Both the position numbers and the translations under genes were made by a program. Source: a virus. From it: a stretch of DNA of 23,864 nt. The notes under the pieces were generated by a model that was not told the origin of the DNA, did no database searches, and saw only the letters and a program-made list of their open reading frames with translations. The stretch lies in UHGV virus genome UHGV-0329186. One strand, written 5' to 3'. Positions within the stretch are counted from its first letter, which is position 1. Each line of letters begins with the position of its first letter. Of this stretch, positions 19,360 through 23,864 are shown piece by piece.

Positions 19360-19415
19360 GGAGTTTACTCACATCTGACAAAATCAATATAAACAGCCCC
19401 TCCGGAGAGGGGCTG
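19333..19415 (+). terminator. Two stable hairpins at and just after the 3' end of the 19024-19359 ORF
   Basis: tatggact-(10 nt)-agtccata at 19333-19358 (8-bp stem) and cagcccctc-cgga-gaggggctg at 19394-19415 (9-bp stem); neither has a clean U-tract. Confidence 0.3.
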
Positions 19416-19806
19416 GAGAGTGGCGCTATGTGCCATTGCATGGTGCCGGGTGCCTCCCGGTGAATTCAGTACCAGCACCTGAATCCGCGATTATCCCATA
19501 TACCTACTCGCTGATTGCCCCTCCGCACAGGGGGATTCACCATGCCAGTTTCTTTTAACAAACTCCCCGCAAACCAGACAACAGTCAACCGCCTGAATTG
19601 TGAAGTATTTAAAAATTTCTCCCGCTAACTGATACCCGGCTAACAGTCTGGCGTTTTCTTTTTCAGCAACGGGAAAGCAACAACCACCACACCCGCCACC
19701 AGCACACCGTCAGCCAGCACTGACATTATCCGGCTGCTGCAATGCCATTCACAAAAACAGTAAGCAATCACTTTTTACCGTAACAGGTGATAATCCAGAT
19801 ATGTAT

Positions 19807-20270: not shown

Positions 20271-20347
20271 TGGCGCGCTGTACTGGATTCGAACCAGTGA
20301 CCGATTGCTTAGAAGGCAATTGCTCTGTCCGGCTGAGCTAACAACGC
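20271..20347 (-). tRNA. tRNA-Arg (anticodon TCT)
   Basis: Minus strand folds as a cloverleaf: acceptor GCGTTGT/ACAGCGC, D stem GCTC/GAGC, anticodon stem ATTGC/GCAAT with loop CT-TCT-AA, T arm ACTGG-TTCGAAT-CCAGT, discriminator G and encoded CCA. Confidence 0.85.
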
Positions 20348-20453: not shown

Positions 20454-20529
20454 TGGTGGCCCTTGCTGGATTTGAACCAGCGACCTGGCGATTATGAGTC
20501 GCTCGCTCTCACCACTGAGCTAAAGGACC
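20454..20529 (-). tRNA. tRNA with CAT anticodon (Ile2/ileX-ileZ type, or Met)
   Basis: Minus strand GGTCCTTTAGCTCAGTGGTGAGAGCGAGCGACTCATAATCGCCAGGTCGCTGGTTCAAATCCAGCAAGGGCCACCA: canonical acceptor, D and T arms, anticodon loop CT-CAT-AA, encoded CCA; very similar to E. coli ileX as I recall it. Confidence 0.85.
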
Positions 20530-21877: not shown

Positions 21878-22927
21878 TTACCCAAGCACGCCAGTTGCAA
21901 AGGCGTGATCAAGAAAACGAAAAATTAAATCAACCTGAGAACCATGCTTTTCTTCGAACGCCAGCGGATCCGCATGAAGCTCGTTGTGATGCTCCCGACA
22001 CAGCGGTAGCGTGAAAATATCGTGAGATTTTGTCCCCATTCCGCCCTGACCATGACCAATCAGGTGATGGGGATCGTCGGCTGGCTTACCACAACACGCA
22101 CACGGCTGTGTCTTCACCCAGCGTGTGTATTTCTCGTTAACCCAGCGGCGACGTTTAGGTCGTTTCATGAAAGATTCCGGAGACTCAGGATCAACGGCAA
22201 TGCTGACCACCGTCTTTTCCTGTGGTGGGTTCTGTTGCTGGTGGGCGTGAGGCAGCGGCGCAAGATTTTTTGTGCGCTGTTTCAGTATGCTGGTGGCGGT
22301 CTGCTCTCCCGGTACGATGTCGCTTTCACGGTACATTGAGCGGATTTTTTCCGCACGCAACCCCAGCGAACGACGTAATACCGCTTCCGGTAGCGCGTCC
22401 GCCACCTGATTGCGGACCGCCCACCAGGATAATTCAGCCAGAGATAATTCACGCTCCTGCGTACCGCTTATTGCGTGACCGATGACGTCAATCATCCATG
22501 CTGACAGGTTTTGATGAGCAACTTGCTCGAGTGATTCGGATGTCTGGTCACGCAGCTGGTTGTCGCAGTGCCAGCACAACACCATTGCGCCGGTACCATA
22601 ACGGTGAATGACGGTTTCGCTGTGATGATAATCGCCGTGTGGCCACTGGCAGGATTTAATATGGCGCAACAGCCAGTCAGACAATGCACCAGCACCACCA
22701 GCAGCACGAATCACCCGTGCGTTACTGAAAAACGGCAGCAATGTTTTGTCTTCCACCAGCGGCTGGCGAGCGGCAGGAACGACCCCGGACGGCAGATTAC
22801 GCATGCTTTTCGGTTCCGGCTCCACCAGTAACCGGGTATTGTGGAATACCGGCATGGATTCACGGCCCGGCTTAACGATCACCAGCCCGAGTTCCGGTAC
22901 CAGAACAGGTCGAAGTAATACCCGCAC
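21878..22927 (-). CDS. DUF968-like prophage protein with C-terminal HNH-like Cys/His cluster
   Basis: 349 aa ORF, GTG start with GGAGG SD; C-terminus CACCGKPADDPHHLIGHGQGG...CREHHNELH; occupies the nin-region position upstream of rusA. Confidence 0.5.
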   Translation of the reverse strand: MRVLLRPVLVPELGLVIVKPGRESMPVFHNTRLLVEPEPKSMRNLPSGVVPAARQPLVEDKTLLPFFSNARVIRAAGGAGALSDWLLRHIKSCQWPHGDYHHSETVIHRYGTGAMVLCWHCDNQLRDQTSESLEQVAHQNLSAWMIDVIGHAISGTQERELSLAELSWWAVRNQVADALPEAVLRRSLGLRAEKIRSMYRESDIVPGEQTATSILKQRTKNLAPLPHAHQQQNPPQEKTVVSIAVDPESPESFMKRPKRRRWVNEKYTRWVKTQPCACCGKPADDPHHLIGHGQGGMGTKSHDIFTLPLCREHHNELHADPLAFEEKHGSQVDLIFRFLDHAFATGVLG

Positions 22928-22928
22928 G

Positions 22929-23318
22929 TTACCTCCAGATGCGTTGCTGGAATGTGCGGGATGGACGCGGTGGGCGTTCGGAGTAAGGCAATCTGACTGA
23001 GATTATCCAGTGACGGTAGTCGAGGCTAAGGGCTTTTTTAACCTCGTATCCGCGCCTGCGGTAACACTGAATTATCCATTCAGCCTGCTCTTCAGTGCAT
23101 GGTGGATGCTGGAACCAGTCCGATTTGAATGCATGAAAACGCCGTCCGCACCTGCTGGCAAAGACGGCAGAATCATCAGAATTGTGTAATTTGGTATCGT
23201 GCGCCATCGGTTGTCTCTGCTGGCGCAGCAGGTGCCAGTTGTTCAGGCTGGCGTATAAAGTATAAATAAACTGGTTCCAGTGTAAAGCCCCTACATTAAT
23301 GGAATAAAAGTCAAACAA
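22929..23318 (-). CDS. Hypothetical nin-region protein (start uncertain: TTG at 23318 or ATG at 23207)
   Basis: ORF whose stop is 1 nt from the downstream GTG start, suggesting translational coupling; no family recognised. Confidence 0.35.
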   Translation of the reverse strand: MFDFYSINVGALHWNQFIYTLYASLNNWHLLRQQRQPMAHDTKLHNSDDSAVFASRCGRRFHAFKSDWFQHPPCTEEQAEWIIQCYRRRGYEVKKALSLDYRHWIISVRLPYSERPPRPSRTFQQRIWR

Positions 23319-23472
23319 CAGATTGTTGGGATAAACACAACGCTTATTATTAAAAGCGATTAGATAAATTAAATTTTAATGTTATGCAATTTTACCAGAT
23401 CATCATAACATCTCGTTTGAAACCACCGAAACAACAACCATATCAATATTGATTATGTTAAAGTGAGTAAAT

Positions 23473-23559
23473 ATGGAAAACAACAAATCTGCACATTACG
23501 CTCCTTTTTTATCTGTGATACTTTTTGTTTTATGCTGTGTGTGGGCATTATTTTTATAA
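23473..23559 (+). CDS. Candidate 28-aa hydrophobic peptide (hypothetical small membrane protein)
   Basis: ATG with a weak GAG RBS; MENNKSAHYAPFLSVILFVLCCVWALFL; possible upstream TTGAAA-N18-TATCAA promoter; embedded in AT-rich DNA. Confidence 0.25.
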   Translation: MENNKSAHYAPFLSVILFVLCCVWALFL

Positions 23560-23569
23560 AAATATTCAC

Positions 23570-23597
23570 AGATAAAATAAACCCGCCGAAGCGGGTT
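23570..23597 (-). terminator. Hairpin plus U-rich tail on the minus strand (terminator-like)
   Basis: Minus strand AACCCGC-TTCG-GCGGGTT followed by TATTTTAT. Confidence 0.3.
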
Positions 23598-23834
23598 AAG
23601 TGCGGGTGCATTGAGGATGCCTGACACATCCGAGGTGGCGAGGGATTTCTCCCTCGCCGGGTCTCTTACTCCTCAGGTTCGTAAACTGTGAAGACAGCGA
23701 CCTCCGTCTGGCCGGTTCGGATTCGTTTGAAGTTCTGGACGGTGCCGGAATAGAATCAAAAATACTTAAGTAGCGCGCAGGGATAAGAGGGATGGTCCCT
23801 TAAAGGGGAGAGCTAATTATCCGGAAGGATTCTG

Positions 23835-23864
23835 ATGATGAACATCGAAGAATTGCGTAAAATT
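23835..23864 (+). CDS. 5' end of an ORF running off the window (MMNIEELRKI...); possibly GnsA/GnsB-family
   Basis: ATGATG preceded by GGAAGGA SD (5 nt spacer) and a possible TTGAAG-N18-TAGAAT promoter; only 10 codons visible. The N-terminus resembles MNIEEL.K of GnsA/GnsB as I recall it. Confidence 0.3.
   Translation, partial: MMNIEELRKI

What the first reader, a model, noticed from the sequence alone, without database searches (positions are those of the whole stretch)
23320..23834. Terminal AT-rich region with a 28-aa hydrophobic ORF, a convergent terminator and a GC-rich structured element
Upstream of the nin-region genes there is an AT-rich stretch with a possible sigma-70 promoter (TTGAAA-N18-TATCAA) driving a 28-codon ORF for a peptide that is almost entirely hydrophobic after a short polar N-terminus (MENNKSAHYAPFLSVILFVLCCVWALFL). 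About 20 nt after its stop a hairpin with a U-rich tail on the opposite strand looks like a terminator for a convergent minus-strand transcript. Next comes about 180 nt of GC-rich, hairpin-dense sequence (e.g. GGCGAGGGA-TTTC-TCCCTCGCC) with no convincing ORF. The arrangement resembles a small toxic membrane peptide with an antisense or adjacent structured RNA (type I toxin-antitoxin-like, or a prophage sRNA), but I could not match it to Hok or any other family. On the antisense strand of the small ORF there is also a 12-codon ORF with a perfect AAGGAG SD, so even the coding strand is ambiguous.
Basis: partly seen in the sequence, partly recalled or inferred. Interest (0 to 1): 0.55.

Follow-up and report, generated by a model that had tools for sequence, protein, structure and literature searches.

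The report
Truncated hokD plus conserved tiny ORF
The "structured RNA" is the leftover 3' end of a well-known prophage toxin gene (hokD) cut off by a rearrangement, and the neighbouring 28-codon hydrophobic ORF is a separate, unannotated but conserved mini-gene present in about a fifth of complete E. coli genomes.

Summary
Together they make a composite of three pieces, not one system.

1. Window 23580-23726 (minus strand) is the 3' end of a hokD (Hok/Gef, type I toxin) locus. It holds the last 19 codons plus stop, a 3'-UTR hairpin, the fbi element and the terminator. The start codon, transmembrane half, mok/Sok leader and promoter are missing, so it is a dead remnant.

2. Homology to the intact locus stops at 23726. 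From 23724 the sequence is 100% identical to the region upstream of rem in a Qin-like prophage, in the opposite orientation, with 3 nt of microhomology (cgt). I found this junction in no other genome or metagenome.

3. The 28-codon ORF (23473-23559, +) is independent of hok. It forms a ~220-nt module with an almost invariant 47-nt block (23343-23389). The module is in ~1,178 of 5,426 complete E. coli genomes and is never annotated. All 118 loci found through the block alone carry an intact 28-codon ORF. Substitutions are biased towards silent changes in this frame only.

The tiny ORF is probably a real small membrane protein gene. Whether it is a toxin is untested.

The parts
23343..23389 (+). 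Almost invariant 47-nt AT-rich block at the left edge of the small-ORF module (CTTATTATTAAAAGCGATTAGATAAATTAAATTTTAATGTTATGCAA). Its role is unresolved; it may hold a promoter or a regulatory site.
   Evidence: Conserved in all 13 representative variants, including L131 whose left flank is unrelated. The block is in 1,177 genomes and the ORF in 1,178.
23379..23411 (+). Conserved hairpin: outer stem ATGTTATG/CATAACAT plus an inner 4-5 bp stem whose sequence differs between variants.
   Evidence: Predicted in every variant. On the + strand 100% of cells pair, with GC->GU five times and UA->UG once. On the - strand 93.2% pair. No double compensatory change occurs in the outer stem, so the evidence is weak.
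23452..23479 (-). Promoter-like site TTTCCA-16-CATAAT overlapping the start of the small ORF. It is a candidate start for a divergent or antisense RNA.
   Evidence: Flagged in the window, L090 as TATGAT and L131 as AATAAT, but not in L104. The number of promoter-like hits does not exceed shuffles in any of these regions.
23461..23467 (+). Shine-Dalgarno-like AAGTGAG, 5 nt before the ATG. Most other variants have AAGGTGAG/AAGGTGG; the most divergent, L131, has AAGGTAG.
   Evidence: Alignment.
23473..23559 (+). 28-codon ORF (MENNKSAHYAPFLSVILFVLCCVWALFL). It has a polar N-terminus followed by 18 hydrophobic residues running to the C-terminus. It is unannotated and conserved.
23458..23496 (-). 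12-codon antisense ORF with AAGGAG. Rejected: it is a by-product of the Ala-Pro-Phe codons of the + strand ORF.
   Evidence: It is 9 codons long in the L104 group and starts with GTG in L131. In its frame 12 of 16 variable codons change the residue.
23580..23597 (-). Intrinsic terminator of the hokD mRNA.
   Evidence: It is the last hairpin of the intact hok mRNA fold.
23602..23616 (-). fbi (fold-back inhibitory) element of hok mRNA: CCUCAAUGCACCCGC on the minus strand. Its partner tac is missing here.
   Evidence: In the intact relative L001 it pairs with the 5' end CUGCGGGUGCUUGAGG. The tac/fbi role is described in PMC9841398.
23637..23658 (-). 9-bp hairpin in the hok 3' UTR (GGCGAGGGA/TCCCTCGCC).
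23666..23726 (-). hokD coding remnant: stop codon (23668..23666), the last 19 codons RIRTGQTEVAVFTVYEPEE, and 1 nt.
   Evidence: 100% identical to the annotated hokD locus of MLI121. Translations. Pfam HOK_GEF 23.8 bits, profile 28-42/42.
23724..23726 (.). Rearrangement junction with the 3-nt microhomology cgt shared by both parents.
   Evidence: Parent sequences. The junction 33-mer is absent from genome contigs and metagenome contigs. None of 5,426 complete E. coli genomes spans it.
23727..23834 (+). Region upstream of rem from a Qin-like prophage, including promoter-like TTGAAG-18-TAGAAT (23727-23756).
   Evidence: 100% identical to L002 4001-4141. Promoter-like site.
23835..23864 (+). Start of rem (MMNIEELRKI...), cut by the end of the window.
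   Evidence: Annotated rem in strain 190.
22929..23207 (-). First nin-side gene, 92 aa (phrog_1212, unknown function), followed by DUF968 at 21878-22927. It gives the module its context.
23259..23286 (-). Promoter-like TTTACA-16-TATACT upstream of the 92-aa gene.
   Evidence: 10/12 match in the window, L104 and L090. Conserved in the alignment except in L131 and L101.

Best explanation
The region is a composite of three unrelated pieces lying between the cargo slot and the nin genes of a lambdoid prophage whose lytic genes run on the minus strand.

A. Window 23580-23726 (minus) is the 3' end of a hokD type I toxin locus. It keeps the last 19 codons and the stop, a 3'-UTR hairpin, the fbi element and the terminator. 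In an intact locus, fbi pairs with the 5' tac element and keeps the full-length mRNA closed and untranslatable. Slow 3' trimming then opens it, and Sok antisense RNA controls translation through mok. Here the 5' two-thirds of the locus are gone: promoter, tac, mok/Sok leader, start codon and membrane helix. No toxin can be made. Only the terminator could still act.

B. The truncation comes from an illegitimate join at 23724-23726 (cgt) to the region just downstream of the hokD terminator of a second, Qin-like prophage in the opposite orientation. Two prophage late arms therefore diverge from this point. This is inferred. A large inversion between a prophage at tRNA-Ser/mtfA and Qin would produce such a junction.

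C. Window 23343-23562 (+) is a self-contained module of about 220 nt: a nearly invariant AT-rich block with a conserved hairpin, about 60 nt of variable leader, a Shine-Dalgarno sequence and a 28-codon ORF. Most likely (inferred) it is transcribed against the direction of lytic transcription, like a moron. It would be translated into a single-helix inner-membrane peptide. Its activity is unknown.
For: A. hokD remnant
- Window 1-23726 is 99.9% identical to a prophage of E. coli MLI121.
- Window 23320-23726 is 100% identical to MLI121, where RefSeq annotates hokD on it.
- The intact CDS gives the 51-aa HokD, Pfam HOK_GEF 78.6 bits. The window remnant gives 23.8 bits over profile positions 28-42 of 42.
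- Rfam sok (RF01794) matches directly 5' of the CDS in L001 (100.8 bits) and L002 (112.7 bits). It finds nothing in the window.
- The 429-nt intact mRNA folds with its 5' end paired to the fbi sequence (-175.7 kcal/mol, z = -7.7). This is the architecture described in PMC9841398.
- The window frame reads YF*FYSGTVQNFKRIRTGQ...EE* with no in-frame start codon.

B. Junction
- Homology to MLI121 ends at 23726.
- Window 23724-23864 is 100% identical to the rem upstream region and start of rem in strain 190, on the + strand.
- Both parents share cgt at the break.
- In MLI121 the same prophage continues to an integrase at tRNA-Ser/mtfA, with no rem nearby.

C. Small-ORF module
- The ORF is in 1,178 and the block in 1,177 of 5,426 genomes, never annotated.
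- Homology breaks right after the stop codon in several different contexts: hokD, IteS peptidase, TehB/DUF1971 and others.
- All 118 evaluable loci found through the block alone have an intact 28-codon ORF (15 peptide variants, 19 nucleotide variants).
- Of 26 variable sites, 13 are at third codon positions. Seven of 18 variable codons are silent in this frame, against 0-4 in the other five frames. pN/pS is about 0.2-0.36 for the distant pairs.
- Random placement of the same substitutions gives so few residue changes without a stop with P = 0.002-0.008 for the distant DNA-found lineage. For L131, P < 5e-5.
Against: - There are no expression data for any strand.
- No + strand promoter is both convincing and conserved.
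- The window's own variant has a weakened Shine-Dalgarno sequence (AAAGTGAG instead of AAGGTGAG).
- Many of the loci are near-identical copies, so '118 of 118' represents few independent lineages.
- L131 was found through a peptide pattern, which favours a coding-like result.
- The last 19 nt of the ORF are invariant even at silent sites. That could reflect a DNA-level constraint.
- The junction is seen only in this window, so an assembly chimera cannot be excluded.
Confidence: 0.82

Rival explanations
1. One reading: the 28-aa peptide is the toxin of a type I system, and the adjacent GC-rich structured sequence is its antitoxin or regulatory RNA.
For: The peptide is small and hydrophobic. The structured element lies 40 nt away and folds well.
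Against: The structured element is the 3' end of hokD mRNA on the other strand. The ORF occurs without any hok within 2.5 kb in 36 of 131 loci, and next to unrelated genes. Homology between contexts ends at the ORF stop codon.
Confidence: 0.03
2. The small-ORF module is a previously undescribed type I toxin-antitoxin pair. In this model the 28-aa peptide depolarises the membrane. A cis-antisense RNA starts at the minus-strand promoter-like site that overlaps the start codon (TSS near 23445). It runs through the conserved hairpin and block and pairs with the 5' UTR of the toxin mRNA.
For: - The peptide is hydrophobic with no charged C-terminus, like ShoB or Ibs (own knowledge).
- The minus-strand -35/-10 recurs at the homologous place in three sequence groups.
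- A conserved upstream block and hairpin suggest a regulated leader.
- A weak terminator-like hairpin on the minus strand at 23358..23341 would give an RNA of about 100 nt.
Against: - Promoter-like hits do not exceed shuffles in this AT-rich DNA.
- The -35 is fixed anyway by the Met-Glu-Asn codons.
- The terminator-like hairpin is not kept in the L104 or L131 groups.
- The wobble pattern of the hairpin favours the + strand, not the antisense RNA.
- No known toxin family matches.
- Toxicity is untested.
Confidence: 0.15
3. The 28-codon ORF is not translated. Its conservation reflects a DNA or RNA element, for example a module-boundary sequence used for recombination between mosaic lambdoid phages, a promoter or silencer region for the nin genes, or a non-coding RNA.
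For: - The block and the last 19 nt of the ORF are invariant at every position, including silent ones.
- The element sits exactly at the border of a highly exchangeable cargo slot.
- There is no expression evidence.
- The ORF is not among the translated intergenic small ORFs listed in the held supplementary files of the O157:H7 Sakai study. One matched file was cut when stored, and it was not checked whether Sakai carries the module.
Against: - The bias towards silent changes and the absence of stops or frameshifts are specific to this frame.
- A Shine-Dalgarno sequence at the right distance is kept in the variants.
- Start and stop sit at the same positions in all 19 nucleotide variants.
Confidence: 0.15
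4. The junction at 23726/23727 is an assembly chimera formed at the two hokD repeats, not a real rearrangement. In that case hokD is intact in the real genome.
For: The junction is unique. It is absent from 5,426 complete E. coli genomes, from one genome per species and from metagenome contigs. Both breakpoints lie in or next to a repeated element (hokD). The junction is only 138 nt from the window end.
Against: - The two hokD copies would be joined in a non-homologous way.
  - One breakpoint is inside the CDS of one copy and the other is 105 nt past the stop of the second.
  - The two copies lie in opposite orientations.
  - Repeat-collapse errors do not normally produce this.
- A 3-nt microhomology is typical of real illegitimate joins.
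Confidence: 0.15

Closest known systems
[quoted passage not shown]
   Same: Window 23580-23726 is identical to the 3' part of an annotated hokD locus. It has the same C-terminal codons, 3'-UTR hairpin, fbi and terminator. Hok genes are reported to be enriched in prophages (bioRxiv 10.1101/2025.08.07.668861).
   Different: The window copy lacks everything 5' of codon 32: promoter, tac, mok, the Sok gene and target, start codon and membrane helix. Chromosomal hok loci inactivated by IS elements, point mutations or rearrangement are known (own knowledge: Pedersen and Gerdes 1999). This particular truncation was seen nowhere else.
Short type I toxins: ShoB (26 aa), Ibs (18-19 aa), TisB (29 aa), DinQ (27 aa), ZorO (29 aa)
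   Same: Similar length, one hydrophobic helix, a short polar N-terminus. Such genes are encoded in intergenic DNA and usually missed by annotation. ZorO was found in E. coli O157:H7 as an unannotated-type small ORF (PMC2887945).
   Different: There is no sequence similarity to any family in Pfam, NCBIfam or PHROGs. No antitoxin RNA has been demonstrated and toxicity is untested. The module is prophage-borne and sits at a fixed place next to the nin genes.
Prophage morons / accessory loci expressed in lysogens
   Same: It is a small autonomous unit inserted between phage modules, on the strand opposite to lytic transcription, next to a slot that carries hokD or defence genes. Accessory loci are often expressed while the prophage is repressed (PMC7067206 abstract).
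   Different: Its own promoter and terminator are not established. At 28 codons it is far smaller than typical morons.
Qin prophage rem region (hokD-rem-ydfU)
   Same: Window 23724-23864 is 100% identical to the rem upstream region and the first 10 codons of rem.
   Different: In Qin-like prophages rem follows hokD on the same strand. Here it abuts the broken end of a hokD from another prophage on the opposite strand.

Membership tests
[quoted passage not shown] | ORF of about 50 aa of the Hok/Gef family with an N-terminal membrane helix | tested here: not met
   Only the last 19 codons are present (Pfam HOK_GEF profile 28-42/42, 23.8 bits). There is an upstream in-frame stop and no start codon. 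The intact relative L001 scores 78.6 bits over profile 1-42.
[quoted passage not shown] | mok leader with the Sok antisense RNA gene and target (Rfam RF01794) | tested here: not met
   No hit in the window at the gathering score or at E<=10. Hits of 100.8 and 112.7 bits lie just 5' of hokD in L001 and L002.
[quoted passage not shown] | Long-range tac (5') - fbi (3') pairing that closes the full-length mRNA | tested here: not met
   fbi is present at 23602-23616 but tac is absent. In L001 the two pair in the minimum-free-energy fold (z = -7.7).
[quoted passage not shown] | 3' UTR stem-loop and intrinsic terminator | tested here: met
   Hairpin at 23637-23658 and terminator at 23597..23580.
[quoted passage not shown] | Nucleotide identity to an annotated hokD locus | tested here: met
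   100% over window 23320-23726 with hokD annotated under the match. The verdict is a remnant of a member, not a functional member.
Type I toxin (generic), for the 28-aa ORF | Peptide under 60 aa with one hydrophobic helix | tested here: met
   Residues 11-28 are PFLSVILFVLCCVWALFL, and their hydrophobic character is kept in all 15 peptide variants.
Type I toxin (generic), for the 28-aa ORF | Antisense or divergent antitoxin RNA complementary to the toxin mRNA | tested here: inconclusive
   A minus-strand promoter-like site recurs. It does not exceed the chance level, it is absent by the scan in L104, and there are no transcript data.
Type I toxin (generic), for the 28-aa ORF | Growth arrest or membrane damage on expression, relieved by the RNA | not testable with these tools
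   This needs inducible expression in vivo.
Type I toxin (generic), for the 28-aa ORF | Sequence membership in a described toxin family | tested here: not met
   No hit in Pfam or NCBIfam, and nothing better than E = 0.1 in PHROGs. The exact peptides are not in the 15-billion protein collection.
Genuine protein-coding small gene, for the 28-aa ORF | Reading frame kept and purifying selection on the peptide across diverged copies | tested here: met
   118 of 118 block-ascertained loci are intact. The silent-change bias is frame-specific. Simulation gives P = 0.002-0.008, and <5e-5 for L131.
Genuine protein-coding small gene, for the 28-aa ORF | Evidence of transcription and translation | not testable with these tools
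   No paper holds the peptide. It is not in the held Sakai small-ORF supplementary files, one of which was cut when stored.

The most novel reading that the evidence does not exclude
The 220-nt module (block, hairpin and 28-codon ORF) is a new, prophage-borne family of membrane-active small peptide genes. It may be a type I toxin controlled by a cis-antisense RNA from the promoter-like site overlapping its start codon. It would be carried by about a fifth of E. coli genomes at the edge of a defence/cargo slot, and it has been invisible to annotation because it is only 28 codons long.
Probability: 0.15. Interest if true: 0.6.

Novelty: new member of a known kind. Interest (0 to 1): 0.35.

Why it matters
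- **The hok part is ordinary.** It removes the apparent mystery of a structured RNA with no family. It also shows that a truncated hokD can look like a novel non-coding RNA when read from raw sequence.
- **The small ORF is the useful by-product.**
  - It is a conserved, never-annotated 28-codon hydrophobic ORF with its own conserved upstream element.
  - It is present in roughly 22% of complete E. coli genomes.
  - It always lies between the nin genes and a slot that carries hokD or, in some loci, an anti-phage gene (IteS).
  - If it is translated, it adds a widespread small membrane protein to the E. coli pangenome. It would be a candidate for prophage-conferred phenotypes such as exclusion, membrane stress or toxin-like activity.
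- **The junction, if real, documents an illegitimate join between two different prophages at their hokD loci.**

Tried and rejected
- **Rfam on the window.** Nothing at the gathering score in 23200-23864. The best sub-threshold hits (rsmX at E = 0.029, Phe leader) only reflect the terminator and hairpin.
- **Family searches for the peptide.** Pfam, NCBIfam and PHROGs gave no family.
- **Large protein database.**
  - An exact look-up of six variants found none.
- **Full-text search for the peptide strings.** 0 papers.
- **Specific papers.**
  - The Fozo 2010 type I survey does not mention the peptide.
  - The held Sakai small-ORF supplementary files do not contain it; one of them was cut when stored.
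- **Junction 33-mer.** Absent from genome contigs and metagenome contigs.
- **Peptide-pattern scan of one genome per species.** Only E. ruysiae and Shigella flexneri matched. The patterns were strict, so more distant relatives could have been missed.
- **Antisense 12-codon ORF with AAGGAG.** Rejected. It is 9 codons long in one group and starts with GTG in L131, and in its frame 12 of 16 variable codons change the residue.
- **Alternative + frame ORF of 53 aa (GTG 23463).** Rejected. It collapses to 6 codons in the distant variants.
Not flagged by the scan and not conserved in the L104 and L131 groups.
- **Minus-strand terminator-like hairpin 23358..23341.** Flagged in the window and L090 but not in L104 or L131.
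- **Lipoprotein reading of the peptide.** I considered it by eye and rejected it. The residue before Cys is Leu in most variants, and the mature part would be only 7-8 residues.
- **ylcH of DLP12 as an equivalent.** Rejected. It lies on the same strand as the nin genes, and the module is absent from that region.
Full report
**What is in the sequence.**
- GC content is 26-34% from 23250 to 23599 and rises to 58% at 23600-23749.
- The 28-codon ORF is at 23473..23559 on the + strand.
- Twenty-one nucleotides after its stop there is a 7-bp G+C-rich hairpin with a T-rich tail on the minus strand (23597..23580).
- The hairpin GGCGAGGGA-TTTC-TCCCTCGCC lies at 23637-23658.
- A 12-codon antisense ORF with AAGGAG lies at 23496..23458.
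- The proposed promoter TTGAAA-N18-TATCAA is present at 23417-23446. It is not reported by the consensus scan because its -10 hexamer lacks the final T.

**The GC-rich 'structured element' is the 3' end of hokD.**
- Window 1-23726 is 99.9% identical to a lambdoid prophage of E. coli MLI121, with the late genes on the minus strand.
- Window 23320-23726 is 100% identical to that genome, and RefSeq annotates hokD under the match.
- The intact CDS encodes the 51-residue HokD, MKQQKAMLIALIVICLTVIVTALVTRKDLCEVRIRTGQTEVAVFTVYEPEE. It scores 78.6 bits against Pfam HOK_GEF.
- The minus strand of the window reads ...YF*FYSGTVQNFK-RIRTGQTEVAVFTVYEPEE*. Only the last 19 codons and the stop (23725..23666) are hok. 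There is an in-frame stop upstream and no start codon between them.
- Twenty residues covering this remnant (the 19 hok residues plus the preceding Lys) still match HOK_GEF at profile positions 28-42 of 42 (23.8 bits).

**Comparison with the known hok mRNA architecture.**
- The 429-nt mRNA of the intact relative folds with its 5' end (CUGCGGGUGCUUGAGG) paired to CCUCAAUGCACCCGC near the 3' end (-175.7 kcal/mol, z = -7.7).
- This is the tac/fbi fold-back described for hok mRNA. It keeps the full-length transcript untranslatable until 3' trimming opens it (PMC9841398).
- The window keeps fbi (23602-23616), the 3'-UTR hairpin and the terminator.
- Rfam's sok family matches directly 5' of hokD in two intact loci (100.8 and 112.7 bits). 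It finds nothing in the window.
- This copy therefore has no promoter, tac, mok, Sok, start codon or membrane helix. It is a dead remnant. Its good folding (z = -4.2) is inherited from the hok 3' region.

**Why it is truncated.**
- Homology to the MLI121 prophage stops at 23726.
- From 23724 to the window end the sequence is 100% identical to the stretch that starts 105 nt after the hokD stop of a Qin-like prophage (strain 190) and runs into rem. It lies on the + strand, and the rem ATG is at 23835.
- The two parents read ...ggattcgt|acctcg and ...caacgcgt|ttgaag, so they share only cgt at the break.
- The result is two prophage late arms pointing away from each other.
- In MLI121 the first prophage continues through its early region to an integrase at tRNA-Ser/mtfA, with no rem nearby.
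- By inference, a large inversion or another illegitimate event joining that prophage to Qin would give this junction.
- None of 5,426 complete E. coli genomes spans the junction. A 33-mer across it is absent from one genome per species and from metagenome contigs.
- It is therefore strain-specific, or less likely an assembly chimera.

**The 28-codon ORF is a separate, conserved module.**
- A DNA search with 23380-23579 finds 1,178 of 5,426 genomes, with nothing annotated under any listed match.
- The distant hits cover only 23452-23560, which is the ORF plus its ribosome-binding region.
- In related loci the ORF always has the nin-type genes on one side: DUF1367-DUF1364-DUF1133, or as here a 92-aa gene and DUF968.
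- On the other side it has very different neighbours:
  - hokD;
  - the S8 anti-phage peptidase IteS;
  - a TehB/DUF1971 gene;
  - an IS421 insertion.
- Homology between these contexts ends within a few bases of the stop codon.
- Of 131 loci, 82 have an intact convergent hokD 106-109 nt beyond the stop, and 36 have no hok within 2.5 kb.
- To the left, an almost invariant 47-nt block (23343-23389) is shared even by the most divergent locus, L131, whose further left flank is unrelated.
- The block occurs in 1,177 genomes, matching the ORF count. The unit is thus about 220 nt long.
- It was found only in Escherichia and Shigella. It is absent from the K-12 DLP12 region and the Qin-like locus that I fetched.

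**Is the ORF coding?**
- I searched IMG/VR for the block alone, so that loci were chosen without reference to the ORF. All 118 evaluable loci carry an intact 28-codon ORF with start and stop at the same places. They comprise 15 peptide and 19 nucleotide variants.
- In the first set of ten distinct nucleotide variants, 13 of 26 variable sites are at third codon positions. Seven of 18 variable codons are silent in this frame, against 0-4 in the other five frames. pN/pS is about 0.2-0.36 for the distant pairs.
- I placed the observed substitutions at random positions. So few residue changes with no stop arose with P = 0.002-0.008 for the lineage first found by DNA search. For L131 (15 differences, 4 residue changes) P was below 5e-5, with the caveat that L131 was found through a peptide pattern.
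- A Shine-Dalgarno sequence (AAGGTGAG or AAGGTGG) sits 5-7 nt before the ATG in most variants. The window's own variant has the weaker AAAGTGAG.
- The antisense 12-codon ORF and the overlapping 53-codon + frame ORF are not conserved.
- The peptide keeps a polar MENN(K/N)xxH N-terminus and an 18-residue hydrophobic tail.
- No protein family, exact database entry or paper matches it.

**Regulatory features of the module.**
- A hairpin at 23379-23411 is predicted in every variant. Its outer stem is ATGTTATG/CATAACAT, and its inner 4-5 bp stem has a different sequence in different groups.
- Its two variable outer pairs change to G-U or U-G on the + strand, so 100% of cells pair there. On the minus strand they become mismatches, so 93.2% pair.
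- This hints that a + strand RNA includes the hairpin, which would mean a leader of at least 92 nt. There is no double compensatory change in the outer stem, so the evidence is weak.
- No + strand promoter is both convincing and conserved.
- A minus-strand promoter-like site overlapping the start codon recurs in three groups as TTTCCA-16-CATAAT, TATGAT or AATAAT. It is not flagged in L104.
- Promoter-like hits never exceed the shuffled expectation in this AT-rich DNA.
- An antisense RNA from this site is therefore only a hypothesis.

**Verdict.**
The locus is hokD, a known family, and here it is a truncated remnant.
- The 28-codon ORF is an independent, unannotated and probably protein-coding small membrane peptide gene of Escherichia lambdoid prophages.
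- I commit to this peptide being translated and inserted into the inner membrane as a moron-like accessory product (about 0.6). Type I-toxin behaviour is a minority possibility (about 0.15).
- Overall interest is modest. The main feature is already known, and the small ORF is a new member of a known kind.

Noticed in passing
window 23724-23864; L002 4001-4141; L254: The window ends in a join between two different prophages: a prophage that sits at tRNA-Ser/mtfA in MLI121, and the hokD-rem interval of a Qin-like prophage in the opposite orientation. They share 3 nt of microhomology. I found the junction in no other genome. The predicted rem promoter-like site TTGAAG-18-TAGAAT begins exactly at the break (23727).
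   Followed up: partly
L001, L002, L003, L005, L006, L008, L009, L010 (slot to the right of the small ORF): The slot next to the small ORF is a cargo hot spot. In different prophages it holds hokD, the S8 anti-phage peptidase IteS with an FtsH-like ATPase, QueH, a 'beta family' protein with an sce7726-family protein, a DUF4209 protein, or a TehB/DUF1971 gene.
   Followed up: partly
window 19385-19574 (-), 20274-20347 (-), 20457-20529 (-): There is an Rfam STnc100 sRNA hit (132 bits) and two tRNA genes downstream of the antiterminator gene. RefSeq annotates the tRNAs as Arg and Ile in the identical MLI121 prophage.
   Followed up: no
window 22929-23318 (-) and 23259-23286 (-): The mechanical ORF is 129 codons from a TTG start. 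RefSeq annotates only the 92-codon ATG form (22929-23207; phrog_1212, unknown function). A 10/12 promoter-like site, TTTACA-16-TATACT, lies about 50 nt upstream and is conserved in front of either type of first nin gene.
   Followed up: partly
L001 4500-4670 (-), L002 3571-3745 (+): The Rfam 'sok antitoxin' model matches the same strand as the hokD CDS in both intact loci, that is the hok/mok leader sense strand. It does not match the strand from which Sok is transcribed.
   Followed up: no
L007 2328-3440; L016/L012/L014/L015; L087: Next to intact small ORFs the hok locus is sometimes decayed. L007 has an IS421 inserted between the two. The L016 group has a mutated terminator stem (GCGGG to TCAAG). 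In L012, L014 and L015 the match to the hokD CDS stops 2 nt before its 3' end (positions 1-154 of 156). In L087 the hokD start codon is lost.
   Followed up: partly
L131 779-862 and flanks: The most divergent copy of the small ORF has 15 nucleotide differences and only 4 residue changes. It lies in a different context, next to a gene of more than 600 aa on the other strand, with an unrelated left flank. This locus defines the left edge of the module.
   Followed up: partly
window 23541-23559: The last 19 nt of the small ORF (TGGGCATTATTTTTATAA plus the following A) are almost invariant across variants, including at silent sites. The only differences seen are in the IteS-context variant (L008/L003). 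This may reflect an additional DNA-level constraint or recent recombination at the module edge.
   Followed up: no
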